Made by a program: the position numbers and the translations under genes. Shown here in pieces: positions 10,384 to 36,602 of a stretch of 64,000 nucleotides of DNA; the stretch's first letter is position 1, and each line of letters opens with the position of its first letter. Under the pieces are notes generated by a model. It saw only the letters and a program-made list of their open reading frames with translations. It was not told the origin of the DNA and made no database searches. The stretch comes from Verrucomicrobiota bacterium (GTDB taxonomy: Bacteria; Verrucomicrobiota; Verrucomicrobiia; Limisphaerales; J093). The stretch is taken from positions 786,123 through 850,122 of the forward strand of contig JADJWF010000011.1 in NCBI GenBank assembly GCA_016716505.1, in the 5' to 3' direction.

Positions 10384-11485
<1,102 letters not shown>

Positions 11486-11522
11486 GGAAAATGTCAAAGT
11501 TGAAATGGTTCGCTCATCAGCC

Positions 11523-13199: not shown

Positions 13200-13212
13200 G
13201 GCAAAGTAACGA

Positions 13213-13234
13213 TATTTCGCCAAAAAACGAAATA
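13213..13234 (-). promoter_or_regulatory. Putative ArsR operator: perfect inverted repeat TATTTCG-N8-CGAAATA inside a sigma70-like promoter
   Basis: Minus-strand reading: TTGTAT-ttcgttttttggcgaaa-TATCGT-tactttgcc-ATG. It shares the ATTTCGCC half-site with the arsR2 upstream region. Confidence 0.4.
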
Positions 13235-13444
13235 CAAGGGTTCTCTTCCGATCGAAGAAGCGCGGGGCAAGCCGCGGACAGATCCCACCCGACCCCAGGT
13301 CATGCGGAAATTCTTTGTCCGCGGCGACCATTGGTGCATCGTGGCTGGGGATAGAGACCGGCGGCCGCCATTCGGGCCGACCTGGCGGCCAGGGAGCCGG
13401 GGGCGGCTCCTGCGGGCCGGTCGGGCTCGGAAAGGAAAGAAGAT

Positions 13445-18679: not shown

Positions 18680-19065
18680 GGATTTTCCCTTGATCCGAGT
18701 GTCGGCCGAAGCAGTCGCAGCACCTGCTGTCGAGTGCGCTCGGTGCTGGCTTGCGCCTCTGCCTCCAGTTGCCGATAAAGCGCCAGCACCCGGCGCCCGG
18801 TCTCCGTCAACCCGGTACCGCCGCCAACCGCCCCGCCACGCTTCGAAGCGACCAACGGTGATGCGAAGCGGTGATTCAGGGCTTGGACGTGCAGCCAGGC
18901 CCGGTTGTAGGACATGCTCATCTGACGTGCCGCGCCGGCGATGGAGCCGGTGGCGCCGATGCGGGCGAGTAATTCCACCTTGCCCGGTCCCAGTTCGAAT
19001 GGCTCGCCGAGATGCAGGCGCAACCCGGAGCGGGCTTTCGGTAACGATTCTCGTCGAGCCTTCAT
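18676..19065 (-). CDS. ModE N-terminal-domain-type transcriptional regulator (wHTH only, no Mop/molbindin domains)
   Basis: 129 aa. LLARIGATGSIAGAARQMSMSYNRAWLHVQALN...KRGGAVGGGTGLTETGRRVLALYRQLE parallels the E. coli ModE N-domain (GSISQGAK..GISYKSAW...GGKGGGGA.LT..G..L..LY). Confidence 0.75.
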   Translation of the reverse strand: MKARRESLPKARSGLRLHLGEPFELGPGKVELLARIGATGSIAGAARQMSMSYNRAWLHVQALNHRFASPLVASKRGGAVGGGTGLTETGRRVLALYRQLEAEAQASTERTRQQVLRLLRPTLGSRENP

Positions 19066-19721
19066 GGTTGCAACCGGGACACAATCGTTCGGGCCATTAT
19101 GCGGGACACAGGCGCTTTGGTGTTCCGTCTCGGGGTATGCGGGGGAAGCGTCGTCGGCGCCGCCAAATCATCAGGCGAGTTCCAGTTGGCGAAGGACGCC
19201 CATTCTACCTCCGGAACGTCTCGCACAATGAGCAAACCAGCCTGCTGGCAGAGCTCGGCGAAGCCAGACGCGGCGCGCAACTGCCTCCGGAGCAGATCGA
19301 GTGCGAGGGGCGTGGCCGCTTTGGGATAAATGGCCGCCAACGGCTCGAGCCGTCGGCCGATCCGGGGCACAACGCCCCTGGCTTCTCGACAGTGCCCCGC
19401 CAAATCGCGCAGCGTTGCGCTCGTCATCGCTGGCATGTCCACCGCCAGCACCAAGACCAGCGGAGCCGTGGCCGCCTCCAATCCGGCGGCGATGCCCGCC
19501 AGCGGACCGGCGTCAGGAAACGCATCGCGTAGCACCGGACAAGCCAGCGCACTGTAATCCGTGTCACCCCGACCTGAGATGAAAAGCTCGACCGGGCCAA
19601 GTTCATTCACCACCGCAATCTGCCTTGCCAGCAGCGGCTGGCCGTCGAGCGGCAGCCAGGCTTTGTCGCGCCCCATGCGGCTGGATTTGCCTCCGGCCAG
19701 GATGACGGCACTGAACTTCAT
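19062..19721 (-). CDS. mobA: Molybdenum cofactor guanylyltransferase
   Basis: MKFSAVILAGGKSSRMGRDKAWLPLDGQPLL...GPLAGIAAGL...VLAVDMP. ATGA overlaps at both ends (19062-19065, 19718-19721). Confidence 0.85.
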   Translation of the reverse strand: MKFSAVILAGGKSSRMGRDKAWLPLDGQPLLARQIAVVNELGPVELFISGRGDTDYSALACPVLRDAFPDAGPLAGIAAGLEAATAPLVLVLAVDMPAMTSATLRDLAGHCREARGVVPRIGRRLEPLAAIYPKAATPLALDLLRRQLRAASGFAELCQQAGLLIVRDVPEVEWASFANWNSPDDLAAPTTLPPHTPRRNTKAPVSRIMARTIVSRLQP

Positions 19722-20191
19722 ACGCCCTCGGTGGCATCGCGGCGCAGCACGCCGCTCGTGAGGATGCGGCAGCGCAGGCCGCCGCGGCCCTGCAACCAGG
19801 CCCGCGCGCCCGGTCCCAGCGCCTGATCCATCCAGTCACACGGGCGGCACTCCTCCACGCCGGCGAAGCGAACGCCCTGGATCTTGAATTCCCGGCCGAT
19901 CAGCCGATTGAGGTCCGCGCCCCGCACGAACACGTTGCGCCGCGTCGCCTGTGGTTGCGCGTTCGGCAGATTCAGTTCCCGACGCAACGCCTCCAGCGCT
20001 TCCATCGCGAAAAAGGTGATCTGACCCTTGTAGTCTTCCTTGTGGTCGAAAAAACGGTCGCCCCGGATGCCCCGGCCCGCCACACATTCGATCTGTTCCA
20101 CAGCGGCGATGGGGTGCTCGCCCGCCGGCTGACCATGATGGCCAAAGAAGTTGTGTCCGGGCGAAATGAACAGGTGTTCGATGCGAAACAT
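19718..20191 (-). CDS. MOSC-domain protein
   Basis: Start at MFRIEHLFISPGHNFFGHHG (ATG 20191), 157 aa, with VEECRPCDWMD (the conserved MOSC Cys). Confidence 0.8.
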   Translation of the reverse strand: MFRIEHLFISPGHNFFGHHGQPAGEHPIAAVEQIECVAGRGIRGDRFFDHKEDYKGQITFFAMEALEALRRELNLPNAQPQATRRNVFVRGADLNRLIGREFKIQGVRFAGVEECRPCDWMDQALGPGARAWLQGRGGLRCRILTSGVLRRDATEGV

Positions 20192-20199: not shown

Positions 20200-21135
20200 T
20201 CAACCACCAGCAACAGCCGGGGCTGGTTCGGACGGAGACGCGGCTTGATACGTCTCCAGACAGCGATTGCAGAGGCCCTGGTCCGGAAGCCACGCGGGAA
20301 ACTCAGCGGCGATGCGTTGGCGGATTTCCAACGCCAGCGTGCGGGTGTCCGCCCAGTGGAACGTTGGAAAGTCACACAGTGGACACGGCGCGCCCGGCGC
20401 GGGCCGATGGGCGTCGCGCAACCCGCGAGGGTCGGCGATCAGCGCGAGGATGTCGGTCTGGCGCGGGGTTGGGTTTTGCCACAAGGAGGCGAAGGTTGCC
20501 GCCTGTCGTGCCTCCGGCCAGAAGGAATAGCCGCGCGCGAACGCGGCAGCGTGCTGCTCGCGCGGTTGGAGCGGCACGTGGCCGGCGGCGGCGAGGCGGC
20601 CGTCAATCGTGATGTCCCAAAGCAGGCGGTAACGCTCGCGCGCCAGCCGGATTTGAGCGGCGTTCAAGCCGGGCAGATCGAGCGCGGGCGAGTAGCCGAA
20701 AACCGGATCGAGCATGTCGTGTAGATGCATGAACTCGTGGCGAAGGAAGTCCCGCAGTGTGGCGTGATTCGTCAGGCGCTCGGTCTTCAGCGCCAGCAGG
20801 CCGGTGCGCTGGCCGGCCTCGTTGACGTAGAGTTCCGCGCCCTCATCGTTCTTGCCCGTGCTTTTGCGCACGGCCAGGACGGCAAGCCGTTCGCGCACGA
20901 GCGGAAACTCATTGAGCACGTCCGTCAATGGCTGCTCCAGTCCCCATTCGCGAAACCAGTCGAGGTGCAGCTTGAAGAACGCAGCATTGCGCTCGTCGGG
21001 ATCAAGGATGCTGTAGAGCTGCTCACGTTTGCGGTGGAAGCGGGTGATTTGCAGCGGTGGCACGCCGCTGCGCCGGCCGCTGGCGCAGAGAAACACGGCC
21101 GCTTCAAGAAAATCGTCGTCGTAGCGCAGTTGCAT
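20200..21135 (-). CDS. Hypothetical protein with an HExxH motif and a C-terminal double-CxxC (zinc-ribbon-like)
   Basis: 311 aa. LRDFLRHEFMHLHDMLDP, and C-terminal CPLCDF...CNRCLETY. It starts 3 nt after the TorD-like stop and ends 8 nt before the MOSC start. I recognise no family. Confidence 0.6.
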   Translation of the reverse strand: MQLRYDDDFLEAAVFLCASGRRSGVPPLQITRFHRKREQLYSILDPDERNAAFFKLHLDWFREWGLEQPLTDVLNEFPLVRERLAVLAVRKSTGKNDEGAELYVNEAGQRTGLLALKTERLTNHATLRDFLRHEFMHLHDMLDPVFGYSPALDLPGLNAAQIRLARERYRLLWDITIDGRLAAAGHVPLQPREQHAAAFARGYSFWPEARQAATFASLWQNPTPRQTDILALIADPRGLRDAHRPAPGAPCPLCDFPTFHWADTRTLALEIRQRIAAEFPAWLPDQGLCNRCLETYQAASPSEPAPAVAGG

Positions 21136-21138: not shown

Positions 21139-21927
21139 TCAGGCCGTGGCCAGCGCGCCGGGCGGCAGATTCGTGATGCCGCAGGAGTCGCACATCCGCT
21201 CGGCCGCGTCGTCCACGGGGCGGAGCAGCAGGTCCTCGCTGCCGGGGGTGACGCCGAATCGGACACATTCTGATTCGATGAACGCGCGGGTGAACTCGGC
21301 GAGCGCCCGGAGCGTCGGCTCATGGGTCGCAGCGGCGAGGCGGCGCGTGAAGGCGGGTGTCCAGCGGCCCAGATGTTCGCGCAGGAATTTCCTCTGCGCG
21401 TCCCGGCATTGCGCGAGCTGTTCGCCGTCGAGTTGATGTTCCAGCGCGTAGGCTTCCTTGGCGGCGAGCACGCATAGGAATTCCAGTTCGAGGCAGATGT
21501 GGTCGTGGCGCTCGCCGGCGTCTTCGGCGACTTCGAGGCCGAAGGCGCGATAGAACGCGGCGAGGTCGGCCAGACGATGCGGTTGGAAGAGCGGGTCGGC
21601 CTTGAGGTCGCCGTATTCGATTTCGTTGAGTGGACACGAGCCGCGCGCGGCGTGGCCGAAGGTCGCGAGGTAGGAATCGTGGAATCGCGTAGCCGCGTCT
21701 CGGGAGAGCGCCGCTGATAATTTATGAAGCGAGTCCATCAGTGAATCGGCTTGCATGGCGGTGCTCTGCCGAGACGTCGCTATGACCGCAGTGGCCGTCC
21801 GCAAGCTGTCGTGTGTGGTGGCGTCGCAAAGCCAGGCCCAACCTTCGGGGGTATGGTCTTCGTAAGCTTTCGCGAGAAAGCGATGGAGGAACGAGCGGGC
21901 GATGGCGAGGTCAATGGAAGCCTGCAA
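21139..21927 (-). CDS. TorD/NarJ/DmsD-family redox-enzyme maturation chaperone (delta subunit)
   Basis: LAIARSFLHRFLAKAYEDH...PLNEIEYGDLKADPLF...LAAFYRAFGLEVAEDAGERHDHICLELEFLCVLAAKE. The start is uncertain: TTG 21927 just after the REP, or ATG 22113, which would read through the REP. The first 211 codons of track ORF 21139..22746 overlap the beta-subunit gene out of frame. Confidence 0.75.
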   Translation of the reverse strand: MQASIDLAIARSFLHRFLAKAYEDHTPEGWAWLCDATTHDSLRTATAVIATSRQSTAMQADSLMDSLHKLSAALSRDAATRFHDSYLATFGHAARGSCPLNEIEYGDLKADPLFQPHRLADLAAFYRAFGLEVAEDAGERHDHICLELEFLCVLAAKEAYALEHQLDGEQLAQCRDAQRKFLREHLGRWTPAFTRRLAAATHEPTLRALAEFTRAFIESECVRFGVTPGSEDLLLRPVDDAAERMCDSCGITNLPPGALATA

Positions 21928-22000
21928 CGGAGCGCCGGTTTCCAACCCGGCGCGTGGATTCCTATTCTCGGAACTCGCCGGGTCGGAGACCGGCGCTCCG
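21928..22000. repeat. REP-A variant (about 73 bp) between the beta-subunit and chaperone genes
   Basis: CGGAGCGCCGGTTTCCAACCCGGCG ... CGCCGGGTCGGAGACCGGCGCTCCG (terminal inverted repeats, each holding a GCCGG..CCGGC hairpin). Confidence 0.7.
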
Positions 22001-22096
22001 TCGGCACGGTAGTTCCCAAACACCGAACGCCTCGGCGTGTCGGTGCGGGCGGCCCACTCGCCGCTCCTCACTCCGCGCTCCGCATTCCGCACTTGT

Positions 22097-23368
22097 TCAG
22101 ATGGAGTTGGCATGTTTGGCGTCCCGCACGTGCAACGGTTCTTCCACGGTGGTTTCGATGATCTTCGTGCCGTCCTTCGCGTAGCCGATGATGGTGTCGT
22201 TGTAGAGGGCGAACTTTTTGCCGCGCACCTCGGTCTCGAACACCTTCGGGCCTTCCTTGATTTCGTAGCGGTGGCAGATGCGCTGGTCCTTGCCGAAGAG
22301 TTGCAGCACGGCGAGAAGTTCGCGGTCAGGCGCGGAGTATTTCTCGATGGCGTCGTCCACGCCCGGGCCGAACATCTGGCGCAGATACGGACGCGACACC
22401 CAGCGCGGCGGGATGTAATAGCCGTTGGGCTCAGTGCCGAATTGCGGGTAGAGCGGCAGCGCGACTTTGGCGACGTGGATGAGGTAATAGAGCGGATTGT
22501 TCCGCGCTTCCTTCCATGTGCCGTCCTTGTTGAGTTCGATAAGACCTTGAAGACGAATATGGCCAATACATGCAGCCATGCAGCGGGTCTGCATCGGGAG
22601 ACTGCCGCCAGCCTGGTCGCGGCCTTCGACACGCGGGTAACAGGCGATGCACTTTTCGCTGGTGCGCGTCGTCCCGCGATACAGGGTCTTCTTGTAGGGG
22701 CAGGCTTCCATGCACTTGCGGTAGCCGCGGCAGCGTTCCTGGTCAATCAACACGATGCCGTCCTCGGGCCGCTTGTAGATGGCGTTGCGCGGACAGGCGG
22801 CCAGGCAGGCAGGATAGCTGCAATGATTGCAGATGCGGGCGAGGTAGAAGAACCACGTCTTGTGCTCGGGCAACAGTTCGCCACCCTTGAAGTATTGGCC
22901 TTTCACGCCCTTCTCGTTGCCGACCGGATGATCCTCGTAGCGGTTGGGCGCGGACCATTCTTCGTCGGTGGGCAGATAGCCAAGCGCGCGATTCGCGCCT
23001 TCCGGACCGAGGAAGGTTTTCGCCGCTTCGAAAATCGTTTTGCCGTTGAACTTGCCGTAGGGGGCTTTGACGTCCTCGGGCTTGCCGCCCCAGTTTTGGC
23101 CGCCGGGATTGGCCTGCTCGAGCAGGTCGAGCGTCTTCACGTCCCAATGGTGCGGGTAGCCGCCGTAGGGTTTGGTTTCGACGTTGTTCCACCACATGTA
23201 TTCCTGGCCCTTGGCGAAAGTCCAGGTGGACTTGCAGGCCATGGTGCAGGTCTGGCAACCGATGCAGCGGTTGATGTTGAAGATGAAGGCGAACTGCTGG
23301 TCGGGAAACGCCGCCTCGTAGGGGTAATCCATCTCGCGCCCCAGTTGCCAGTTGAAGACGTTGCTCAT
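22097..23368 (-). CDS. Type II DMSO-reductase-family beta subunit (4 Fe-S clusters), NxrB/NarH-like
   Basis: 423 aa. MSNVFNWQLGREMDYPY...FIFNINRCIGCQTCTMACKSTWTF...MWWNNVETKPYGGYP. Further Cys groups CNHCSYPACLAACP, CRGYRKCMEACP and CIACYPR. No signal peptide, so it would hitch-hike on the alpha subunit. Confidence 0.9.
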   Translation of the reverse strand: MSNVFNWQLGREMDYPYEAAFPDQQFAFIFNINRCIGCQTCTMACKSTWTFAKGQEYMWWNNVETKPYGGYPHHWDVKTLDLLEQANPGGQNWGGKPEDVKAPYGKFNGKTIFEAAKTFLGPEGANRALGYLPTDEEWSAPNRYEDHPVGNEKGVKGQYFKGGELLPEHKTWFFYLARICNHCSYPACLAACPRNAIYKRPEDGIVLIDQERCRGYRKCMEACPYKKTLYRGTTRTSEKCIACYPRVEGRDQAGGSLPMQTRCMAACIGHIRLQGLIELNKDGTWKEARNNPLYYLIHVAKVALPLYPQFGTEPNGYYIPPRWVSRPYLRQMFGPGVDDAIEKYSAPDRELLAVLQLFGKDQRICHRYEIKEGPKVFETEVRGKKFALYNDTIIGYAKDGTKIIETTVEEPLHVRDAKHANSI

Positions 23369-23410
23369 GTTCGTGAAGGGTTGAGTCGTTGAAGAATTTC
23401 AGGGTCGCGG

Positions 23411-23863
23411 TCAGACGGTGAATTTGGGAGCGGGCGCGCCGGTGGGGTCGGTGGGTTGTGTAGCGCAGGCTTCCGAGCCTGCTGTGTCGCGGGTTGCCAA
23501 ACCCGCCTGCGCCCCGGCGTTGTCACGCTCTGCCGATTTGGAAATCGGCGATACAGCAGACTTGGAAGTCTGCGCTACCTCGCTTCCGCCGGCCACAGGC
23601 CATTCTATTTTCCTGCCCGAGCGCGCAAACACCTCGGCGATCAGGTCGCGGATGAATGGCTCGCCGCGTTTTTCGAGCGCCATGTGCGGGCCGAGGTAAT
23701 GCGGGTTGCGGAACAACGCAAGCACCTGCTTGTGGCCGTAGCCCATCCGCATGAACTCCTCGATGAACGTCTCGGCCATGTCGTTGGTCGTGTCTTCATG
23801 CGTCATGAACGCCATGCCGTTCAGTTCAAACGGGTCTTCAAAATCGAATTCGTCTTTGGGCAT
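23411..23863 (-). CDS. Small hypothetical protein between the alpha and beta subunits; the 3' third of the ORF is REP-derived
   Basis: MPKDEFDFEDPFELNGMAFMTHEDTTNDMAETFIEEFMRMGYGHKQVLALFRNPHYLGPHMALEKRGEPFIRDLIAEVFARSGRK looks protein-like. From about aa 96 the frame runs through REP 23460-23578 (VAQTSKSAVSPISKSAE...). Confidence 0.5.
   Translation of the reverse strand: MPKDEFDFEDPFELNGMAFMTHEDTTNDMAETFIEEFMRMGYGHKQVLALFRNPHYLGPHMALEKRGEPFIRDLIAEVFARSGRKIEWPVAGGSEVAQTSKSAVSPISKSAERDNAGAQAGLATRDTAGSEACATQPTDPTGAPAPKFTV
23460..23578. repeat. REP-A cluster 4 (about 119 bp)
   Basis: GTAGCGCAGGCTTCCGAGCCTGCTGT, GCGGGTTGCCAAACCCGC, GCCGATTTGGAAATCGGC, ACAGCAGACTTGGAAGTCTGCGCTAC. Confidence 0.85.
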
Positions 23864-23957
23864 ACGTGATTTCCCGATGGCAGCCGACCTGAGGAGGCTC
23901 GAACTTTTGCCACGAAGGAGAAGTGAGCCTCCCTGCGCCGGCGGCTACGAAATATTC

Positions 23958-26900
23958 TCACTCAAACGTTTCTCCGCCGCCGCCTTCGCCTTTGCCCACG
24001 AAGTTGCCGGCGAGGTATTTCTTCATCTTGTCGTTCTCGGCGTCGGGGGACATGCCGTTGAGGCCGGGCTTCCACGGGCCTTTGCCGCCCAGACCGCCGT
24101 CCTCGGCCTTGGTCACACGGACCAGACATTCCTTCGGCACGGTGTTGACGGCGTGGTTGTCGGCCTCGCCGCCGAAGATGAACGCCATCGCCACCTTGGC
24201 CTTGTGAAACAGCGTATCGGTCTGGTGCATCGGCATGTGCCAGTTGCGCGTGACGGATTGCTGCGAGCCGAAGCGGAAGTTCGAGATGTAACCTTCCTCG
24301 GTGAGCGACAGGCCGTCGGGCCGCGTCTGCTGGGCCTTCACGGTCTTCTCCGTCGCGATGAACGAGCCGTGTTTCATCATCACGACGTTGTAGGGATAGG
24401 CGGCGTTGTAAGTCAGCCGCAGCATGAGGCGGCTGACCTTGTAGAACGGATCGCTCGGCGTCGCGCCGAGATACGGGCGGTCGGCGGGATTGGCGTCCAC
24501 ATAGACGTAATCGCCATCGGCGAGGCCGAGGTCGCGCGCGGCCTGCGGGTTCATGTGGAGCTGATGCTCGCCCACGTTGGGCAGGCGTTTGTCCACGCGA
24601 TACGGATCGCCGAAGTTTGAGTTCCAGATGAGGTGCCAGTCCACGTTGGCCCACGACGAATGGACGCTGTGGCGCGACTTGGGCGTGAGGCAGTAGAACT
24701 GGAATCCCTTTTCCCAGAGGAAATTCTTCGTCTTCTTCACCTCGGGCCACGGTAGCTTCACGTTGCGCACGGTGCGTTCGTCCCAATGCTCGGCGTCGAG
24801 CGGGATGCCGTAATCGTTCGGGCGCACGAGCGGATTCGAACTGACGATCACGTTCGGCAGATACGGCGTCGCCTCCGGGCCTTCGCGGTGGACGATGAAG
24901 TTCTCGCCGCACGCGAGCGCGGTGGGGTCGTCGGTGTAACTGTGCAGGCGGCCCGTGTCGGTGTAGAACGGGTAGTTGTCGTGGACCTGTTCGTAGAACG
25001 GGATGCGCGGGTAGCTGCGGAAGAGCATGAGCGCACCGCCGGGCGGGCCGTATTTGCCAGCCATGATGTCTTCCACTTTGTAGCCAGCGGTGGTGGTCGA
25101 GGTGTCGAGCAGGCGCTGGAGATAGACCTTGCGCTGGCCGGTCAGCTCGAAGTGGAAGTAGTCGCGGAAGCGTTGGTCGCCGGTGACCTTGCCGAGCGCG
25201 GCGGCGATGCCGGCCAGGATGGACAGGTCATCCTTCGAGTCGTAGAGCGGTTTGATGCCGCCCTTCCAGATTTGCAGGAAGGGGTTGGAACAACTGGCGG
25301 TGACTTCGAGGTCCTGGAACTCGACCCACGAATTGGCCGGCAGGCCGAAGTCGGAATACTCGACGCTGGCGGTCATCTGGGTTTCGAGCGTGACGATGAG
25401 TTCGACGTTGGGGTTGACGTTCTTGATGACGCCGTAAGCCCATTTGGCGTTGTTGATCAGGTTCACGTTGGTCGTGAAGATCGCCTTGGTGGGCGTGGGC
25501 ATGTGGGTCTTGCCGGTGAAGTTCTTCCGTCCCTCTTTCGGCGTGTTGACGATGAGCGGGCGGTCGCCATGATTCCAATAGGCCGGCTCTTCGTCCTTGG
25601 TGTAACCGTGGGCGTGAACGTCGCGGCCGTGGGCCTTGGGATCGAGGTTCGGCGCAAAGGGGTCTTCCGCCACCCAGCCCTTGAAGCCCGGGCCGGTGAG
25701 TTTGCTGCCCTGGAAGAGCGCGGCCTTGTAGTTGCCGGCCCAGTGGTAGCAACCCGCGCCCGGCTTGCCGATGTTGCCGGTGAGCAGCAGCGGCAGGTGG
25801 GCCGCGCGGTTGGCCTCGGTGGCGTGAAACCAGTGCGCGATGCCCTCGCCCTGGTGGATCGCCGCGGGCTGGATGGTGGCGAGGTCTTTGGCGAGCCGCT
25901 CGATCAAGTCCTTGGGCGCGCTGGTGATTTCCGAGACGGTGTCGAGGTCGTAGTCCTTGAGGTGGACCTGGTAGAGATTCCACGAGGTGGCGACTTCCAC
26001 TTCCGAGCCGTCGGCCAGTTTCACGCGGCCACGGAAATCGAGCTGCGGATCAATGCTGGCCCGGGCCATCGTCGCGCCGACCATGTCGCGGGTGAGGGCC
26101 TTCGGTGAATTCGTCATGGCGTCCCAAACGACGAAGTCGCCGAGTTTCTGGTGCTGCTCGTCGGTGAGGCCCTGCACTTTCTTGCTCGGGCCGTCGTCGG
26201 CGAGGCGGCTGGTGTAGTTGGGGAACACCTCCGCCGCGCGCAGGCGCTTGAGGTTGTCGGTGCGGATGAGCAGCGGGAAATCGGTGAACTGCTTCACGAA
26301 CGCCTCGTCATACCACTTGTTCTCGATCATCACGCGGGTGACGCCGAGCCAGAGGGCGGCGTCGGTGGCGGGGCGGACGGGGATCCAGTAATCGGCCTTG
26401 GTCGAGGGCGCGCCGTATTCGGGGGCGATGACGACGATCTTGCAGCCGCGTTCCATGGCTTCGACGAACCAGTGCGCGTCGGTGAGCTTGTTCTCGACCA
26501 GGTTCTTGCCGTTCATGACGAGCAGCTTGGAGGTGCGCAGGTCGTTGAAGTCGCAATCGGCGTTTTGCAGGCCATGCACCCACGGCTGGCCGGGGGCTTG
26601 ATCGCCGTGCCAGGTGTAATTGGACCAGTTGCGGCCGGCTTTGGCTTCCTCGGGCTTGACGCCGCGCACGTGAACGTCGAGCAGGGCGAGGGAATTGCAC
26701 AGACGATACATGCCGTATTTGCCGAGCACGCCGAGCAGGCCCATGCCGCCGCGCATCTTGATGGTGCGCGTGCCCGCGCCGCCCATTTCCTGAATCATCT
26801 CCGGCTCGTAGCCCTGTTCGGCCAGCAGCTTCGCGCCGGCCTCGCCGGAGTAACGCTTGGCGATGGCCATGGTGGCGCGGGCGATGTAATCGAAGGCTTG

Positions 26901-27440
26901 ATCCCACGAGAGGCGCTCGAACTTGTCCGTGCCGCGCGAGTCGAACTTGTATTTGGCCTTGAGTTCCTTGGTGAGCAGCGGGAAGCCGTCATCGGCCCAG
27001 CGTTTCCAGCCGCGGCGGACGATGGGGTGCTTGAGGCGATACGGCCCGTAAAGGATGCGGTGAAAGGTGTAGCCCTTGGCGCAATGGCGGTTGCCCCAGT
27101 TGGGCGAGGCGTGGTTGCCGTAGAGGTCCTGGTAGGTGTGGATGTCGAACTCTTCGCCGAGGCGAACGATGACGCCGTTGCGCACGTGGGCCGTGATGCG
27201 GCAGTTGTGCGTGTCGTTCGGCGCGCACACCCACGAGAACTGACGATCGTAGGCGTATTGATTGCGGTAGAGCTTCTCCCAGTCGCGGTTCGGGTAATGC
27301 GCGAGGGGGTTGGCGACGTCCTCGGCGGGCTGGGCCTGGAGGAAGCGCAGCGGGAGGAACTGGGCGGCGGTAATGCCCGCGCCGACAAGGCCGCTGCGCT
27401 GGAGAAACGCGCGGCGGGAGAGGGAAGAGTCGTTGCTCAT
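23958..27440 (-). CDS. Type II DMSO-reductase-family molybdopterin alpha subunit, Tat-exported, NxrA-like (periplasmic nitrite oxidoreductase/nitrate reductase type)
   Basis: Start at ATG 27440: MSNDSSLSRRAFLQRSGLVGAGITAAQFLPLRFLQA (twin-arginine signal). 1160 aa. N-terminal Fe-S motif WVCAPNDTHNCRI...NRHCAKGYTF. Large molybdopterin oxidoreductase body. Substrate not determinable by eye. Confidence 0.9.
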   Translation of the reverse strand: MSNDSSLSRRAFLQRSGLVGAGITAAQFLPLRFLQAQPAEDVANPLAHYPNRDWEKLYRNQYAYDRQFSWVCAPNDTHNCRITAHVRNGVIVRLGEEFDIHTYQDLYGNHASPNWGNRHCAKGYTFHRILYGPYRLKHPIVRRGWKRWADDGFPLLTKELKAKYKFDSRGTDKFERLSWDQAFDYIARATMAIAKRYSGEAGAKLLAEQGYEPEMIQEMGGAGTRTIKMRGGMGLLGVLGKYGMYRLCNSLALLDVHVRGVKPEEAKAGRNWSNYTWHGDQAPGQPWVHGLQNADCDFNDLRTSKLLVMNGKNLVENKLTDAHWFVEAMERGCKIVVIAPEYGAPSTKADYWIPVRPATDAALWLGVTRVMIENKWYDEAFVKQFTDFPLLIRTDNLKRLRAAEVFPNYTSRLADDGPSKKVQGLTDEQHQKLGDFVVWDAMTNSPKALTRDMVGATMARASIDPQLDFRGRVKLADGSEVEVATSWNLYQVHLKDYDLDTVSEITSAPKDLIERLAKDLATIQPAAIHQGEGIAHWFHATEANRAAHLPLLLTGNIGKPGAGCYHWAGNYKAALFQGSKLTGPGFKGWVAEDPFAPNLDPKAHGRDVHAHGYTKDEEPAYWNHGDRPLIVNTPKEGRKNFTGKTHMPTPTKAIFTTNVNLINNAKWAYGVIKNVNPNVELIVTLETQMTASVEYSDFGLPANSWVEFQDLEVTASCSNPFLQIWKGGIKPLYDSKDDLSILAGIAAALGKVTGDQRFRDYFHFELTGQRKVYLQRLLDTSTTTAGYKVEDIMAGKYGPPGGALMLFRSYPRIPFYEQVHDNYPFYTDTGRLHSYTDDPTALACGENFIVHREGPEATPYLPNVIVSSNPLVRPNDYGIPLDAEHWDERTVRNVKLPWPEVKKTKNFLWEKGFQFYCLTPKSRHSVHSSWANVDWHLIWNSNFGDPYRVDKRLPNVGEHQLHMNPQAARDLGLADGDYVYVDANPADRPYLGATPSDPFYKVSRLMLRLTYNAAYPYNVVMMKHGSFIATEKTVKAQQTRPDGLSLTEEGYISNFRFGSQQSVTRNWHMPMHQTDTLFHKAKVAMAFIFGGEADNHAVNTVPKECLVRVTKAEDGGLGGKGPWKPGLNGMSPDAENDKMKKYLAGNFVGKGEGGGGETFE

Positions 27441-27478
27441 AGATTGGTCGGGTTGGTGGGATCGCTCGCCGTGCAAAT

Positions 27479-29041
27479 TCAGTCGAGCACGAGCTGATAC
27501 CAGTTGCTCACCATCTTGCGGCCGTTGCGGTCGCCCTGCTCGCCGTTCCAGACGGCGAAGGCGACGGGCACGGATTTGCCGGCGGCGAATTGCACGTCGT
27601 CCTGGTCGTTTGACTTGAGGTCGCGGATGAAGACGACGTTCCAGAAGCCGGCGTGCCAGAGGCCCTTGCCGGCGACGTTTTGCTGGGCCAGCGGCTGCGA
27701 GGTGAACGAGCCGAAGCCGCGCGCGTTGGCGTCCTCGATGGGCGACTTGTGCGGCTGGGCGAGGATGTTTCCGGCACTGGTGGCGGTGGCGAACTGGCGT
27801 TCGGGTTGGAAATAAGTGTCCACGTGCATGGCCTGGTAGGCGTCGCGCATTTCGGGGAGGTCACCGCCGGCTTCCATCTGCCAGCCGGCTTTCCATTGCC
27901 AGAGGTTGACGGGGTTTTGGGCGTCGCCCATGCCGAGGAAGCCGTAGCGACCGGACAGCGAGAACTGCAGCGCGGCGGCGTCCTGGAAATCCTGCACGCG
28001 GATGGTGGTGTTGTGCGGGAGTTCATCGCGCCATTGAAGCAGGACGGCGAGTTTGTTGCCGTCGGTGACCGCGGAAACGGCCACGGCATAAACCTGATTC
28101 GGCTCGGGCCAGAGCGGATTCAGCGGCACGCGCACCGGGTCGAGCGATTCCCAAGCAGCGTCCATCGGCTCGGAGGGCAGGCTCGCGACATGCCGGACGT
28201 GGATGGCATTGTCCTCGGGCGCGAGCAGGTCGTTGACGGCAACATCGGTGCGGCGGAGGGACTGGACGTAGTGAACAAGCGCCCAGCGTTCGGCGGGTTT
28301 GAGCACGTCATCGCCGTAGGGAACCATGGGCGTGCCGGGCAGGCCGTTGTGGATGCGGAGGTAGAGGTCTCGCCCGGTGTGGCCGCCGCGGAAAAGGCCG
28401 GTGTTGAAATCACGCGGGCGGACGGGCAGGCCAGCAGCGTCCTTGAGCGTGGGGACTTGGGGCCCGTCGCCCGCGCCGGTTTCGCCGTGGCAAAGGTTGC
28501 ACTGCATTTTCTGGTAGATTTGGCGACCGAGGGCGAGTTCCTCGACGCCGGCCGCGGGTTCGGGCGGGACAATGACGGGCTGGGCGAGCTGGCCGCTGGC
28601 GGCGGCTTCGTCGAAGAGGTTCACCCGCCTGCCCGAGGCATCGGTGCGCGCGGTGAGGAACTTGACGTACTGCACGACGTCGCTTCGCTCCTTCTCGGAA
28701 AGGTGGGAAAAGCTCGGCATGGAACTTCCCGGGAGGCCGCGAATGATGGATTGATGCAAGTCGTCATCGGAGGGCAGGTCCACGCCCGGGGTGGACTTGA
28801 TTTTGAACTGTCCGGCGCTGAAGTTCCGCGGTCGCGGGTAGAGCCAGACCGAGGCCGGTCCATTGCCGTCGCCCGTGAGCCCGTGGCAGGCGGCACAATG
28901 CTGTTCATAGACGACGCGTCCACCAGCCAGAGACTCCGCCGGAGCCGCGAGGGGAGACGACGCGTGGGCAGCACCCGGTTCGAATGCTGCGACCGATACG
29001 AAGGCCAAACCGGACAGGCACGGCAGCGCTCTCTTCATCAT
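27479..29041 (-). CDS. Gamma-type subunit: dihaem cytochrome c fused to an EB_dh (ethylbenzene-dehydrogenase gamma / haem-b, DOMON-like) domain
   Basis: Start at MMKRALPCLSGLAFVSVAAFEPGAAHA (ATG 29041, Sec signal). CAACHGLTGDG and CNLCHGETGAGDG (two class-I-like cytochrome c modules). The C-terminal 230 aa or so, ...AVLLQWRDE...AALQFSL...NLWQWKAGW...VAFAVWNGEQGDRNGRKMVSNWYQLVL, are typical of the EB_dh family. Confidence 0.85.
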   Translation of the reverse strand: MMKRALPCLSGLAFVSVAAFEPGAAHASSPLAAPAESLAGGRVVYEQHCAACHGLTGDGNGPASVWLYPRPRNFSAGQFKIKSTPGVDLPSDDDLHQSIIRGLPGSSMPSFSHLSEKERSDVVQYVKFLTARTDASGRRVNLFDEAAASGQLAQPVIVPPEPAAGVEELALGRQIYQKMQCNLCHGETGAGDGPQVPTLKDAAGLPVRPRDFNTGLFRGGHTGRDLYLRIHNGLPGTPMVPYGDDVLKPAERWALVHYVQSLRRTDVAVNDLLAPEDNAIHVRHVASLPSEPMDAAWESLDPVRVPLNPLWPEPNQVYAVAVSAVTDGNKLAVLLQWRDELPHNTTIRVQDFQDAAALQFSLSGRYGFLGMGDAQNPVNLWQWKAGWQMEAGGDLPEMRDAYQAMHVDTYFQPERQFATATSAGNILAQPHKSPIEDANARGFGSFTSQPLAQQNVAGKGLWHAGFWNVVFIRDLKSNDQDDVQFAAGKSVPVAFAVWNGEQGDRNGRKMVSNWYQLVLD

Positions 29042-32100: not shown

Positions 32101-32624
32101 AATCGCACCCCGGCGCCCGTCGCGGTCACGAGCAGGTCGAGGTCGCTGTCGCCGTCCACGTCGGCCAGGGCCGCGCCGCGCGAGAGCTGGCCGGCGCAGG
32201 CGACGCCGGCGGCTGCGGTGATGTCCGTGAAGCGCCAGTTGCCAAGGTTCCGGTAGAGCGCGTTGCCGCCTTCGAGGTTGCAGAGGTAGATGTCGCACCA
32301 GCCGTCGCCGTCCACGTCGCCCAGCGCGACCCCCGCACCGCTCATCAGCGCGGTGTTGCGGTTCAACGTGGCGTCGGAAAGCTGGTTGGTGAAGGCGATG
32401 CCCGCCGCAACGGGATCGAGGGCGGTGAAGCCGGCCCGCCCCGCGCCGATCGGCGTCACTTCCCGGAAACGACCTCCGGAAAAGGCCGCCCATGAGTCAA
32501 CGGTTGCGCCCGATGCCGAAAGCGCCGTGGCGGCCAGCGTGGCGAAGGTCAGCCCGGCGGCGTGGTTCGCGGAATAGATCAGGTCAGCCAGCCGGAGTCG
32601 GGGCCGGCGCGACGGCTGGCTCAC
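29172..32624 (-). CDS. CRTAC1-family protein (FG-GAP/VCBS repeats + ASPIC/UnbV), secreted
   Basis: 1150 aa, GTG start 32624 overlapping the upstream paralogue stop. Many ...DVDGDGWxDIYLCN / FxNxGxGRF repeats and two UnbV-like segments (GIGARVRL...QEIVSGGRYVSGDD; GCAAADFDGDGWPDL). Confidence 0.85.
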   Translation of the reverse strand: MSQPSRRPRLRLADLIYSANHAAGLTFATLAATALSASGATVDSWAAFSGGRFREVTPIGAGRAGFTALDPVAAGIAFTNQLSDATLNRNTALMSGAGVALGDVDGDGWCDIYLCNLEGGNALYRNLGNWRFTDITAAAGVACAGQLSRGAALADVDGDSDLDLLVTATGAGVRLFTNDGRGRFTETTADAGLASRAGSLSLALADVDGDGDLDLYVANFAVESVLRDGGNIATRLVNGRPVVVGRMANRLKFVDGKLVEFGEPDTLYLNDGRGRFAAASWTEHFADENGEPLPAPWDWGLAVQMRDFSGDGAPDIYVCNDFHTPDRAWVNDGRGRFRALPAMALRKSSYAAMGVDFADLDRDGHLDFLVVEMLSRDPAERLRQMTPDEPRPPLPGLGTAWPQAGRNTLFLGRGDGTFAEVAWYAGLAASDWSWLPLFVDVDLDGFEDVLIPTGPTHDLLDLDSLQGGPSRDARAAGMKLERFPRAATPNRAFRNLGNLRFEETGRAWGFDSKLVSNGMALADLDNDGDLDAVVNCLRAAPLLLRNDSPAPRVAVRLNGLAPNTQGIGARVRLLGGAVPEQTQEIVSGGRYVSGDDAMRVFAAGRLTNQMRIEVVWRSGHTTTVPRVVANRCYEIEEPSAAPAVAGGGPAPAGEPRFEDVSHLLGHVHVEQPFDDFARQPLLPRKLSQRGPGVAWLDLDGDNRPELAIGGSRGGQPAVFRWSGKRFEPLGITGLPALPDDAPAVAALPLGDKAHLILGLAQYETPQTNLPAAWLLAGGGTANSIAVVETLPAIGAGGSGTLAVADVDGDGDHDVFTAGGAIPGLYPAANPGVLWIHREGRLVADADASRPFASAGLVSGATFVDLTGDGLPELVLAVEWGPVRIFRNERGRFTDASEVFGTAGLLGLWQGVVAGDFDGDGRPDLLAGNWGENSVRQASPERPWLAYCGDFSGDGVTEIIEARFDPTTGRTLPLRTREELGGAWPAVQERFPTHRAFSEAGVERILGSDLTKTFVLRATTLASQVFLNRGGRFEIRPLPREAQFAPAMGACVADFDRDGRPDVFLSQNFFALPSEAWRLDAGRGLWLRGRGDGTFEAVPGQESGIAIYGEQRGCAAADFDGDGWPDLAVAQNGAATKLYRNRGNRASLPRR

Positions 32625-36337: not shown

Positions 36338-36602
36338 TTGGCTGGGCAAGGAAATCCTTTCCCGGCTCGGTTTCGCAAGCGCGATTCCCTTTGCCGCCGG
36401 CGGAAGTTCGAAACTGGAGAGGAGGTGGGAGCACGACTGGAAGGTGGATTGGGCAGTGAGGCTAAGGGGAGAACGAGTTGAGGTGGCGGGCCTGACGAGT
36501 TTCTGGGCAGCGGCGAGAGCGACCCGAACGCGCTGCCGGGGTGAGGGCGTGGGCCGTTTTAATGCCGGCGGGAGTGAACGCGCCGGGTACTCGCGCGCGG
36601 GT

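What the first reader, a model, noticed from the sequence alone, without database searches (positions are those of the whole stretch)
21139..29041. Periplasmic NXR-type (Nitrospira/anammox-like) molybdoenzyme in a genome that otherwise does not look like a nitrifier
Seen:
- The alpha subunit is 1160 aa with a twin-arginine signal (SRRAFLQRSG).
- Its N-terminal Fe-S motif reads C-x3-D-x3-C (WVCAPNDTHNCRI), not H/C-x3-C-x3-C.
- The beta subunit is 423 aa and starts MSNVFNWQLGREMDYPY...NINRCIGCQTCTMACK.
- There is a TorD-like delta subunit and a haem-b-type gamma subunit.

From memory, to be verified: an alpha of about 1150 aa, a beta of about 430 aa, Tat export, the Asp-containing FS0 motif and the NWQLGR beta N-terminus are features of the periplasmic NxrAB of Nitrospira, Nitrospina and anammox bacteria. 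SerA, PcrA, ClrA, DdhA and EbdA are about 900-1000 aa.

Inference: the complex could oxidise nitrite, reduce nitrate, or act on a different oxyanion. No other nitrification or denitrification gene is in the window. The neighbouring korAB suggests low-oxygen metabolism.
Basis: partly seen in the sequence, partly recalled or inferred. Interest (0 to 1): 0.75.

Follow-up and report, generated by a model that had tools for sequence, protein, structure and literature searches.

The report
Periplasmic NXR-type nitrate/nitrite oxidoreductase in Verrucomicrobia
A sugar-eating Verrucomicrobium carries a complete, intact operon for the same kind of periplasmic molybdenum enzyme that nitrite-oxidising and anammox bacteria use, but it probably runs it backwards to breathe nitrate; the operon is widespread in non-nitrifiers, so "nxr" genes in metagenomes are not proof of nitrification.

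Summary
On the minus strand, 29041..21139 encodes gamma, alpha (1160 aa), a 150-aa ORF, beta (423 aa) and a TorD-like delta.

- **Alpha:** scores 1737 bits against Kuenenia NxrA (7b04_B), 62% identity end to end. PcrA scores 197, EbdA 137 and NarG 111.
- **Cofactor ligands:** the Tat motif, FS0 Cys3/Asp, Mo-ligand Asp280, all beta Fe-S cysteines and the haem-b Met/Lys ligands are present.

- Gamma is a fusion of a dihaem cytochrome c with the haem-b domain.
- No membrane anchor is encoded.
- The operon continues into a conserved unknown HExxH/Cys4 protein, then MOSC and MobA genes.

The organism is a Limisphaerales-like Verrucomicrobium. The same six-gene cassette sits in at least 80 species of more than 10 non-nitrifier phyla.

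An 85% orthologue is in cultured Limisphaera sp. VF-2. That strain respires nitrate heterotrophically.

My best reading is a soluble, cytochrome-c-linked, reversible NXR-type enzyme used mainly as a respiratory nitrate reductase. Physiological nitrite oxidation is not excluded.

It is a new member of a known kind and of moderate interest. No Nitrospira or Nitrospina sequence could be placed in my tree.

The parts
27479..29041 (-). nxrC-like gamma subunit, 520 aa (alternative GTG start at 29089). It has a Sec signal peptide, a dihaem cytochrome c domain and an EB_dh haem-b domain. No transmembrane helix.
   Evidence: Pfam gives Cytochrom_C x2 at 8e-24 and EB_dh at 1.2e-25. In the PDB the N-terminal half matches 6h5l_B, a Kuenenia cytochrome, at 9e-45, and the C-terminal half matches 7b04_C NxrC at 5e-31. 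The maximum KD19 hydropathy, 1.37, falls only at the signal peptide. The same fusion lies directly upstream of alpha in 66 of 67 related loci.
28883..28897 (-). Haem c binding site 1, CAACH (gamma residues 49-53).
   Evidence: Read directly from the sequence.
28487..28501 (-). Haem c binding site 2, CNLCH (gamma residues 181-185).
   Evidence: Read directly from the sequence.
27515..28159 (-). EB_dh / NxrC haem-b domain. The axial ligands are Met371 (codon at 27931) and Lys509 (codon at 27517).
   Evidence: In the alignment to 7b04_C the Met aligns with Ks Met155 and the Lys with Ks Lys305. Those are the haem-b ligands named in PMC8387239.
23958..27440 (-). nxrA-like catalytic alpha subunit, 1160 aa, Mo-bis-MGD plus FS0.
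   Evidence: 1737 bits against 7b04_B over residues 7-1148 and 62.2% identity. NCBIfam type II DMSOR alpha scores only 351 bits against a cutoff of 985, and narG 138 against 1084. GenBank record MBK9140804.1 is named 'molybdopterin-dependent oxidoreductase'.
27399..27419 (-). Twin-arginine export motif S-R-R-A-F-L-Q (alpha residues 8-14).
   Evidence: Read from the sequence. It aligns with LTRRAFLQ of Kuenenia NxrA.
27201..27227 (-). FS0 motif C72-x2-N75-D76-x3-C80. A further Cys120 in NRHCAKG is the probable third Cys ligand. Asn75 is the substrate-positioning Asn.
   Evidence: The residue roles are taken from the Kuenenia structure paper.
26601..26603 (-). Asp280, the Mo ligand, within Y275-4x-D280-11x-Q292-N293.
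   Evidence: It aligns with Ks Asp275. The motif is as described for N. defluvii. Asp280 is invariant in 14 relatives.
23411..23863 (-). orf150, a small acidic cytoplasmic protein of unknown function. The N-terminal ~85 aa are conserved and the tail is variable.
   Evidence: It lies between alpha and beta in 74 of 75 loci. It has no Pfam, NCBIfam or PDB-profile match. GenBank lists it as hypothetical IPM17_18965.
22097..23368 (-). nxrB-like beta subunit, 423 aa, with ligands for three [4Fe-4S] clusters and one [3Fe-4S] cluster.
   Evidence: 597 bits against 7b04_A. The Cys groups are 35/38/41/45, 180/183/188/192, 213/219/223 (with Tyr at the second position, as expected for a 3Fe-4S site) and 240/243/263/267.
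21139..21945 (-). TorD/NarJ-family delta chaperone. The start is uncertain: TTG 21945, TTG 21927 or GTG 22023.
   Evidence: Pfam PF02613 at 1.9e-21 and TIGR03482 at 1.2e-24. Candidate starts are listed. It is present in 54 of 54 loci.
20200..21135 (-). orf311, a conserved cytoplasmic protein of unknown function. It carries HExxH (H133, E134, H137), D140-M-x-D-P-x-F-x-Y, and a C-terminal C251-x2-C254...C289-x2-C292.
   Evidence: It follows delta in 51 of 52 loci. It has no Pfam or PDB match. The AF2 model has pLDDT 75 and no Foldseek hit below E = 0.1.
19718..20191 (-). MOSC-domain protein, about 157 aa from ATG 20191.
   Evidence: Pfam MOSC at 1.3e-8. Orthologue alignments start near residue 35 of the longer ORF. 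It follows the cassette in Verrucomicrobia and in L083.
19062..19721 (-). MobA, molybdenum cofactor guanylyltransferase, which makes the MGD form needed by alpha.
   Evidence: Pfam NTP_transf_3 at 5e-36. The GenBank name is 'molybdenum cofactor guanylyltransferase'.

Best explanation
**What it is.** The region is an intact operon for a soluble, periplasmic, NXR-type nitrate/nitrite oxidoreductase in a heterotrophic Limisphaerales-like Verrucomicrobium.

**Assembly (inferred).**
- Alpha is loaded with Mo-bis-MGD in the cytoplasm.
- MobA and the TorD-like delta take part in this. orf150, orf311 and MOSC may help as well.
- Alpha is exported by Tat with beta as a hitchhiker.
- In the periplasm the pair docks on the Sec-exported gamma.

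**Electron wire (shown by conserved ligands).** Mo/Asp280 - FS0 (Cys3/Asp76) - four Fe-S clusters of beta - haem b (Met/Lys) - two c haems of the fused cytochrome domain.

**Partner (inferred).** No membrane anchor is encoded. The enzyme must therefore trade electrons with the periplasmic cytochrome c pool rather than with quinones.

**Physiological direction (inferred, the weakest step).**
- It works mainly as a respiratory nitrate reductase under low oxygen. The path is menaquinol -> alternative complex III or bc-type complex -> cytochrome c -> gamma -> beta -> alpha -> nitrate.
- Energy is conserved at the quinol:cytochrome c step.
- Chemically the enzyme is expected to be reversible, like Kuenenia NXR.
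For: **Identity**
- Alpha scores 1737 bits against Kuenenia NxrA, 197 against PcrA, 137 against EbdA and 111 against NarG.
- Beta scores 597 bits against NxrB. The haem-b domain of gamma matches NxrC at 5e-31.
- Alpha is 62% identical to Kuenenia NxrA. That equals the published Nitrospina-Kuenenia value.
- In the NJ tree the group containing Kuenenia has 100% bootstrap.

**Ligands**
- All cofactor ligands are present.

**Soluble and cytochrome c-linked**
- Two CxxCH sites lie in gamma, and no transmembrane segment occurs in any product.
- The fusion is conserved in 66 of 67 loci.

**Direction**
- Limisphaera sp. VF-2 carries the whole cassette, with alpha 85% identical.
- Strains VF2 and 4302-co respire nitrate on sugars and do not grow lithoautotrophically.
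- Their genomes are reported to hold 'distant homologs of NarGHI' that the strictly aerobic L. ngatamarikiensis lacks.
- They also have ACIII instead of bc1, NrfAH and MK-7 (PMC13608581).
- A Crp/Fnr regulator sits directly upstream of gamma in the 91% orthologue, next to PFOR and an ADP-forming acetyl-CoA ligase-type gene (Pfam CoA-ligase/ATP-grasp domains). Crp/Fnr regulators also flank other Verrucomicrobial loci.
- Rrf2 (NsrR-like) regulators and hemerythrin genes flank or interrupt the cassette in 12 or more loci of other phyla.
- Kuenenia NXR catalyses both directions in vitro.
Against: - No activity, expression or genetic data exist for this enzyme or for any member of its clade.
- The link between L011 and the 'distant NarGHI homologs' of the Limisphaera paper is my inference. 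The paper's supplementary tables are not held.
- That paper did not test nitrite oxidation.
- The closest characterised enzyme, Kuenenia NXR, oxidises nitrite in vivo.
- Authors who found relatives in Planctomycetota and KSB1 MAGs favoured nitrite oxidation (PMC10732223).
- In the window itself no Fnr, Crp or Rrf2 gene or FNR box lies next to the operon.
- A high-potential Met/Lys haem b plus c haems would suit either direction.
Confidence: 0.6

Rival explanations
1. The enzyme works physiologically as a nitrite oxidase. Nitrite is oxidised in the periplasm, and the electrons pass through the haem b and the fused c haems to cytochrome c and a cbb3- or caa3-type oxidase. This would give a heterotroph extra energy (mixotrophy) or remove toxic nitrite. 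Verrucomicrobia with this cassette would then be unrecognised nitrite oxidisers.
For: - It sits in the same well-supported group as Kuenenia NxrA and is as similar to it as Nitrospina NxrA is.
- It has the Y-4x-D-11x-QN pattern of N. defluvii.
- Cytochrome c is the expected acceptor of nitrite electrons in nitrite oxidisers. Nitrospina has 'alt_NxrC' proteins that combine c-haem sites with the haem-b domain.
- A periplasmic NXR contributes directly to proton motive force.
- Suarez et al. proposed nitrite oxidation for relatives in Planctomycetota MAGs.
Against: - Cultured Limisphaera strains with the orthologue are sugar-fermenting, nitrate-respiring heterotrophs that do not grow autotrophically.
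- The neighbouring regulators are of the anaerobic or NO-responsive kind.
- The window shows no CO2-fixation or nitrifier hallmark genes.
- Many of the hosts are MAGs recovered from groundwater and are labelled Omnitrophota, Syntrophobacteraceae, Binatia or Methylomirabilota.
Confidence: 0.25
2. The enzyme acts on another substrate of type II DMSO reductases, such as chlorate, perchlorate, selenate, dimethylsulfide or a hydrocarbon or steroid.
For: - The family is catalytically diverse.
- All NCBIfam family models score far below their cut-offs, so no curated family claims it.
Against: - It is 62% identical to a structurally characterised NXR, with the substrate-positioning Asn and the Mo-ligand Asp in place.
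- PcrA and EbdA score about one tenth as much.
- Limisphaera VF2 does not respire selenate or arsenate.
Confidence: 0.05
3. The operon is a decaying or silent horizontally acquired relic with no current function.
For: - G+C dips to 0.605-0.63 over 22-26 kb, against 0.66-0.70 in the flanks.
- In the 91% orthologous locus a 2000-aa RHS gene follows alpha, and no beta is called within the next 10 kb.
Against: - All eight genes are intact and full length.
- GC3 is 0.74-0.88.
- Every cofactor ligand is conserved.
- Alpha and beta are 77-97% identical across more than 30 Verrucomicrobial species, which form a clade with 100% bootstrap. That pattern indicates purifying selection.
Confidence: 0.03

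Closest known systems
Kuenenia stuttgartiensis NXR-ABC (PDB 7B04; Chicano et al. 2021, PMC8387239)
   Same: - Alpha, beta and the haem-b domain align end to end: 1737, 597 and 111 bits, with alpha 62% identical.
- Both have a Tat signal, FS0 Cys3/Asp, the Mo-ligand Asp, the substrate Asn and a Met/Lys haem b.
- Both are soluble complexes without a membrane subunit.
- The Kuenenia enzyme is bidirectional in vitro.
   Different: - Here the haem-b subunit is fused to a dihaem cytochrome c, whereas Kuenenia NxrC is 322 aa and carries haem b only.
- My searches of the paper's text turned up only the monohaem cytochrome NXR-T (kustd1705) as a further product of the 15-gene Kuenenia cluster. No such gene lies in this cassette.
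- The Mo motif ends in QN here and in QT in Kuenenia.
- The host is a periplasm-bearing heterotroph, not an anammox bacterium with an anammoxosome.
Periplasmic NXR of Nitrospira and Nitrospina (Lucker 2013, PMC3578206; Kitzinger 2018, PMC6050957)
   Same: - Alpha is about 1150 aa with a Tat signal, and beta is about 425 aa.
- The Y-4x-D-11x-QN motif is shared.
- A TorD-like chaperone is present.
- Nitrospina encodes 'alt_NxrC' proteins with 1-3 c-haem sites plus the haem-b domain, the architecture seen here.
- A 'putative zinc finger' protein is conserved in their nxr gene sets and may be the counterpart of orf311. This is untested.
   Different: - Those hosts are chemolithoautotrophic nitrite oxidisers.
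- Their operons are nxrABC or nxrAB, with chaperones elsewhere.
- Nitrospira NxrC is described as membrane-integral (PMC3578206).
NXR-like cassettes of non-anammox Planctomycetota and KSB1 MAGs (Suarez et al. 2023, PMC10732223) and the 'distant NarGHI homologs' of Limisphaera (PMC13608581)
   Same: - They belong to the same family. KSB1 and Phycisphaerae members fall in the window's multi-phylum clade at 72-73% identity.
- The Limisphaera VF-2 cassette is orthologous, at 85% identity.
- The Pirellulales-type sister clade has the same gene order.
   Different: - Those papers did not describe the cytochrome c::NxrC fusion, orf150 or orf311.
- They disagree on direction: nitrite oxidation is hypothesised in one, nitrate respiration is observed in the other.
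Membrane-bound respiratory nitrate reductase NarGHI (E. coli, PDB 1Q16)
   Same: Same superfamily, the same Mo-Asp ligation, the same Fe-S wire in beta, and the same chemistry (nitrate/nitrite couple).
   Different: - It scores only 111 bits (alpha) and 179 bits (beta).
- NarG faces the cytoplasm and has a His/Cys3 FS0.
- NarI is a dihaem b quinol-oxidising membrane anchor, and no such gene is present here.
- NAR is stated to lack nitrite-oxidising activity.

Membership tests
Periplasmic NXR-type enzymes (anammox / Nitrospina / Nitrospira lineage of type II DMSO reductases) | The catalytic subunit groups with bona fide NxrA, apart from Nar, Pcr, Clr, Ser, Ddh and Ebd. | tested here: met
   - 1737 bits against Kuenenia NxrA, versus 197 or less for any other solved type II enzyme.
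- The NJ group containing Kuenenia has 100% bootstrap. The next representatives are only 33-45% identical.
- The test was made against Kuenenia only.
Periplasmic NXR-type enzymes | A twin-arginine signal on alpha (periplasmic orientation), with beta lacking a signal. | tested here: met
   SRRAFLQ lies at residues 8-14. Beta starts directly with MSNVFNWQLGR and has no hydrophobic N-terminus.
Periplasmic NXR-type enzymes | A Mo-ligand Asp in Y-4x-D-11x-Q(N/T/M), and a substrate Asn next to FS0. | tested here: met
   Y275...D280...Q292-N293 and N75.
Periplasmic NXR-type enzymes | FS0 coordinated by three Cys and one Asp (C-x3-D-x3-C) rather than by His/Cys3. | tested here: met
   C72, D76 and C80 align with Ks Cys67, Asp71 and the following Cys.
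Periplasmic NXR-type enzymes | Beta carries ligands for three [4Fe-4S] clusters and one [3Fe-4S] cluster. | tested here: met
   Fifteen Cys in four groups, with Tyr in place of the second Cys of group 3. 597 bits against NxrB.
Periplasmic NXR-type enzymes | A gamma subunit with an EB_dh-type haem b ligated by Met and Lys. | tested here: met
   Met371 and Lys509 align with Ks Met155 and Lys305.
Periplasmic NXR-type enzymes | The enzyme oxidises nitrite to nitrate in vivo, which is the functional definition of an NXR. | not testable with these tools
   Only indirect evidence exists, and it points the other way. Limisphaera strains with the orthologue respire nitrate.
NarGHI respiratory nitrate reductase | Cytoplasm-facing NarG reaching the narG equivalog score, plus a NarI dihaem b membrane anchor. 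| tested here: not met
   TIGR01580 narG scores 138 bits against a cutoff of 1084, and narH 186 against 524. Alpha has a Tat signal. No transmembrane protein is encoded in the operon.
Pcr / Clr / Ser / Ddh / Ebd group (NCBIfam TIGR03479, TIGR03478, TIGR03477) | Scores above the curated cut-offs of the type II DMSOR subfamily models. | tested here: not met
   Alpha scores 351 against 985, beta 253 against 481 and gamma 121 against 170. EbdA, EbdB and EbdC all score far below their cut-offs.

The most novel reading that the evidence does not exclude
The cassette (cytochrome c::NxrC fusion, NxrA, orf150, NxrB, TorD-like, HExxH/Cys4 protein) would be a horizontally mobile module that lets ordinary heterotrophs of many phyla oxidise nitrite aerobically or micro-aerobically. 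Verrucomicrobia, non-anammox Planctomycetota, Omnitrophota, Methylomirabilota, Binatia and others would then be a large hidden guild of non-autotrophic nitrite oxidisers.
Probability: 0.15. Interest if true: 0.8.

Novelty: new member of a known kind. Interest (0 to 1): 0.45.

Why it matters
- **Gene-based surveys.** Metagenomic nitrogen-cycle surveys commonly score nxrA and nxrB as 'nitrite oxidation'. This enzyme type, 62% identical to a bona fide NXR, occurs in hundreds of non-nitrifier species. In cultured Limisphaera it accompanies heterotrophic nitrate respiration. Gene-based nitrification budgets can therefore be wrong in either direction.
- **An open question.** What sets the working direction of NXR-type enzymes is stated to be unresolved (PMC8387239).
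- **A route to an answer.** A fast-growing, cultivable thermophilic heterotroph with an 85% orthologue offers an easier system than anammox or Nitrospira for expression, purification and perhaps genetics.
- **New accessory proteins.** The two conserved unknown proteins, orf150 and orf311, are candidate maturation factors specific to this enzyme lineage.

Tried and rejected
1. **Nitrospira and Nitrospina references.** I could not obtain sequences for a labelled tree.
   - The single genome-contig scan returned only the 80 closest loci, all from non-nitrifiers.
   - The 50% representative search and the cluster look-up gave unnamed or non-nitrifier representatives.
   - A second homologue search, seeded with P0121, landed in a Pirellulales/Gemmataceae clade.
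   - I reconstructed Kuenenia NxrA residues 3-1144 from the PDB alignments and used published identities for the rest.
2. **Exact look-up of beta in the assembly index.** It is not on record. The source was instead identified through orf311 and the cluster look-ups.
3. **Regulatory sites upstream of gamma.** There is no TTGAT-N4-ATCAA site near the operon and no sigma-70-like promoter. Terminator-like hits are below the shuffled expectation.
4. **orf150 and orf311.**
   - No Pfam, NCBIfam or PDB-profile hit.
   - The AF2 model of orf311 has pLDDT 75. It shows a three-strand sheet followed by the HExxH helix.
   - Foldseek found nothing below E = 0.1. A zincin-like fold is therefore only a suggestion.
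5. **Supplementary tables of the Limisphaera paper.** They are not held, so its 'NarGHI' locus tags could not be matched to L011.
6. **Genes upstream in Limisphaera L011.** These are glycoside hydrolases and unknowns and are uninformative.
7. **Lucker 2010 PNAS.** The paper is not held.
8. **Literature searches for a Verrucomicrobial NXR study.** They found none.

Full report
**1. What is in the sequence**

The finding lies on the minus strand. Mechanical ORF listing and GC3-guided gene picking give one co-directional, tightly packed string of genes.

| Gene | Coordinates (-) | Size |
|---|---|---|
| gamma | 29041..27479 | 520 aa from the ATG; a GTG at 29089 is an alternative start |
| alpha | 27440..23958 | 1160 aa |
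| orf150 | 23863..23411 | 150 aa |
| beta | 23368..22097 | 423 aa |
| delta | about 21945..21139 | about 268 aa |
| orf311 | 21135..20200 | 311 aa |
| MOSC | 20191..19718 | about 157 aa |
| MobA | 19721..19062 | 219 aa |

**2. Domain and family assignment**

- Alpha contains the Molybdopterin domain (Pfam).
- Beta contains the Fer4_11 dicluster domain.
- Delta contains Nitrate_red_del.
- Gamma contains two Cytochrom_C domains plus EB_dh.
- MobA and a MOSC protein follow.
- Against NCBIfam, all subunits hit the type II DMSO reductase models best but far below the curated cut-offs. Alpha scores 351 against 985, beta 253 against 481 and gamma 121 against 170. The narG/narH and ebdABC equivalogs also fail. 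No curated family claims the enzyme.

**3. Comparison with solved structures**

| Subunit | Best PDB match | Other matches |
|---|---|---|
| alpha | 1737 bits to Kuenenia NxrA (7b04_B), residues 7-1148 on 3-1144 | PcrA 197, EbdA 137, E. coli NarG 111 |
| beta | 597 bits to NxrB | Pcr, Ebd and Nar beta subunits 179-197 |
| gamma, C-terminal half | 111 bits (E = 5e-31) to NxrC (7b04_C) | EbdC 45 bits (E = 6e-11) |
| gamma, N-terminal half | 9e-45 to a Kuenenia cytochrome (6h5l_B) | |

I rebuilt Kuenenia NxrA residues 3-1144 from the printed alignments. It is 62.2% identical to the window's alpha.

Lucker et al. 2013 report 62% identity between Nitrospina and Kuenenia NxrA, and 54-55% between Nitrospina and N. 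defluvii. The window's enzyme therefore lies inside the identity envelope of accepted periplasmic NXRs.

**4. Cofactor ligands**

Residue roles come from the Kuenenia structure paper.

- C72, N75 and D76 correspond to Ks Cys67, Asn70 and Asp71. These form the unusual Cys3/Asp FS0 site and the substrate-positioning Asn.
- D280 corresponds to Ks Asp275, the Mo ligand. It sits in Y-4x-D-11x-QN, the pattern given for N. defluvii.
- Gamma Met371 and Lys509 correspond to the haem-b ligands Met155 and Lys305.
- Beta has 15 Cys in the four expected groups. Tyr stands at the second position of group 3, which is the 3Fe-4S signature.
- Alpha carries SRRAFLQ. Gamma has a Sec-type signal peptide (MMKRALPCLSGLAFVSVAAFEPGAAHA).
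- No product has a transmembrane segment beyond its signal peptide.

The encoded complex is therefore soluble and periplasmic. Its electron wire ends in two c-type haems.

**5. Who carries it**

- The exact alpha, beta, orf150, orf311 and MobA proteins are GenBank entries of a MAG named 'Verrucomicrobia bacterium'. They lie on an 884,791-bp contig with locus tags IPM17_189xx. [quoted passage not shown]
- The rest of the window fits a heterotrophic Verrucomicrobium. It holds:
  - FG-GAP/ASPIC giants;
  - an N-methylation-motif protein;
  - a GH38-like hydrolase;
  - an ars cluster;
  - assimilatory sulfate reduction genes;
  - korAB-like 2-oxoacid:ferredoxin oxidoreductase.
- The homologue search found 2638 proteins below 1e-50. 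The top hits, at 77-97% identity, are Verrucomicrobial wherever they are named.
- In one genome per GTDB species, 581 or more stretches encode a relative. The best 80 comprise more than 30 Verrucomicrobiota, including the cultured Limisphaera sp. VF-2 at 85%.
- At 70-75% identity come Methylomirabilota, Binatia, Omnitrophota, Phycisphaerae and other Planctomycetota, Acidobacteria, Sumerlaeota, Eiseniibacteriota and others.

**6. Phylogeny**

I built a neighbour-joining tree of 60 alpha sequences over 1140 columns, with Kimura distances and 100 bootstraps.

| Clade | Bootstrap |
|---|---|
| Verrucomicrobial sequences | 100 |
| Multi-phylum clade containing them | 100 |
| That clade plus a Pirellulales/Gemmataceae-type clade, an Anaerolineae sequence, Kuenenia NxrA and a Tectimicrobiota sequence | 100 |

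The last group is separated from the SAR202, Gaiellaceae, Halorussus, Thermincola and Obscuribacterales representatives, which are 33-45% identical.

The branching order among Kuenenia and the non-nitrifier clades is weak, at 55-58.

The tree has three limits:
- it uses NJ rather than ML;
- it holds no Nitrospira, Nitrospina or Scalindua sequences;
- the Kuenenia sequence was reconstructed from alignments.

**7. A conserved cassette**

tblastn of the window's proteins against the 80 loci shows the same order almost everywhere.

| Element | Loci with it / loci with enough flanking DNA |
|---|---|
| fused cytochrome c::haem-b gamma directly upstream of alpha | 66 / 67 |
| orf150 | 74 / 75 |
| beta | 60 / 60 |
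| delta | 54 / 54 |
| orf311 | 51 / 52 |

- The Pirellulales-type sister clade has the same order plus MOSC.
- orf150 and orf311 have no Pfam, NCBIfam or PDB-profile match.
- orf311 conserves H133-E134-x2-H137, D140-M-x-D-P-x-F-x-Y and C251/C254/C289/C292.
- Its AF2 model has pLDDT 75, with a three-strand sheet followed by the HExxH helix. It has no significant structural neighbour.
- Lucker 2013 lists an 'alternative NxrC' (c-haem sites plus the haem-b domain), a TorD-like chaperone and a 'putative zinc finger' protein among the genes conserved between the Kuenenia, Nitrospira and Nitrospina nxr sets.
- The cassette here looks like a compact version of that set. The equivalence of orf311 with the zinc-finger protein is untested.

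**8. Which way does it run?**

The sequence cannot decide this. The Kuenenia enzyme catalyses both reactions, and what controls direction is stated to be unknown.

*Circumstantial evidence for nitrate reduction*

- Limisphaera strains VF2 and 4302-co are sugar-fermenting heterotrophs that respire nitrate and nitrite and do not grow autotrophically.
- Their genomes, but not that of the strictly aerobic type species, contain 'distant homologs of NarGHI'.
- They also have ACIII, NrfAH and MK-7 (PMC13608581).
- L011 from Limisphaera sp. VF-2 carries the full cassette.
- I infer that the cassette is that 'distant homolog'. I could not check locus tags.
- A Crp/Fnr regulator lies immediately upstream of gamma in the 91% orthologue. 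It sits beside PFOR and an ADP-forming acetyl-CoA ligase-type gene (Pfam CoA-ligase/ATP-grasp domains). Crp/Fnr genes also adjoin other Verrucomicrobial loci.
- Rrf2 regulators and hemerythrin genes adjoin or interrupt the cassette in many loci of other phyla.

*Against, or for nitrite oxidation*

- The nearest characterised enzyme oxidises nitrite in vivo.
- Cytochrome c is the natural acceptor in nitrite oxidisers.
- Suarez et al. 2023 favoured nitrite oxidation for related genes in Planctomycetota and KSB1 MAGs, while admitting that direction cannot be assigned.
- The window itself shows no adjacent regulator or FNR box.

I therefore give about 0.6 to the composite explanation that this is an NXR-type enzyme used mainly as a cytochrome-c-dependent nitrate reductase. 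I give about 0.25 to physiological nitrite oxidation.

**9. Proposed mechanism (inferred)**

- *Cytoplasmic maturation.* MobA supplies MGD. Delta holds apo-alpha. orf150, orf311 and MOSC are possible helpers.
- *Export.* Tat exports alpha and beta together, and Sec exports gamma.
- *Nitrate respiration.* Electrons flow from NADH or ferredoxin to MK-7, then through ACIII or a bc-type complex to cytochrome c. From there they pass to the c haems of gamma, then haem b, FS4 to FS1, FS0 and the Mo centre, where nitrate is reduced. Energy is conserved upstream of the enzyme.
- *Reverse direction.* Nitrite oxidation in the periplasm would feed cytochrome c oxidases.

**10. Novelty and interest**

- The enzyme type, its periplasmic orientation and its presence outside nitrifiers are already in the literature (PMC10732223, PMC13608581) and in public databases, although under generic names.
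- This is a new member of a known kind.
- The analysis adds several points:
  - the Verrucomicrobial clade is large and monophyletic;
  - the cassette is conserved across phyla;
  - it includes a cytochrome c::NxrC fusion and two uncharacterised proteins;
  - a cultured nitrate-respiring strain carries it, which makes the direction question experimentally tractable.
- Interest is moderate, at 0.45.

Noticed in passing
window 20200-21135 (-): orf311 (GenBank hypothetical IPM17_18950) follows the TorD-like gene in 51 of 52 related loci across phyla. It has conserved HExxH, DMxDPxFxY and C-terminal CxxC...CxxC motifs. It matches nothing in Pfam or the PDB and has no significant Foldseek neighbour. 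It may be an NXR-specific maturation factor, or the 'putative zinc finger' protein of nitrifier nxr gene sets.
   Followed up: partly
window 23411-23863 (-): orf150 is a small acidic protein that always lies between alpha and beta (74 of 75 loci). Only the first ~85 residues are conserved (D10, P11, E36, G41 and G67 are invariant). Its function is unknown.
   Followed up: partly
L081 13510-19602 and L082 13107-19091: In the 91% orthologous Verrucomicrobial locus, seen in two assemblies, a ~2000-aa RHS/YD-repeat gene follows alpha directly. No beta or delta gene is called in the next 10 kb. The operon may be disrupted by an insertion, or this may be an assembly join.
   Followed up: no
L060, L061, L078, L051, L058 (between orf150 and beta); L083 4732-5842; many loci about 300-700 bp upstream of gamma: Hemerythrin-domain genes are inserted inside the cassette in Planctomycetota and Sumerlaeota loci. 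Rrf2-family (NsrR-like) regulators lie next to the cassette in at least 12 loci. Crp/Fnr regulators lie next to it in 5 Verrucomicrobial loci. The window itself has none of these.
   Followed up: partly
window 3593-6109 (-): An 838-aa secreted multihaem cytochrome c with 7 CxxCH sites and 1 longer CxnCH site, giving weak NapC/NirT, c7 and c554 hits. Limisphaera relatives are reported to reduce Fe(III), so this may be part of an extracellular electron-transfer route.
   Followed up: no
window 8021-13463 (-): An arsenic resistance cluster: ArsP-type permease, ACR3/SBF arsenite carrier, ArsM-like methyltransferase, LMW-phosphatase-type ArsC and ArsR.
   Followed up: no
window 22000-26000: G+C falls to 0.605-0.63 over beta and alpha, against 0.66-0.70 in the flanks, and AT skew is strongly negative. 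This could reflect old horizontal acquisition or amino-acid constraint.
   Followed up: no
window 29172-36349 (-): Two very large FG-GAP/VCBS plus ASPIC/UnbV repeat proteins (1150 and 1071 aa) and a 160-aa fragment lie directly upstream of gamma. The first is also upstream in L001 at 95% identity. Only 82 bp separate it from the gamma ORF, so the nxr promoter is unclear.
   Followed up: no
window 2691-3428 (+): An IS200/Y1-type transposase ORF.
   Followed up: no
L005, L016, L024, L007, L015: Several GTDB records with clearly Verrucomicrobia-type cassettes (82-87% identity) carry unlikely organism labels: Bifidobacteriaceae, Bifidobacterium sp., Akkermansia muciniphila, Limnocylindrales and Myxococcales. 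Mis-binning or mislabelling is the likely cause.
   Followed up: no
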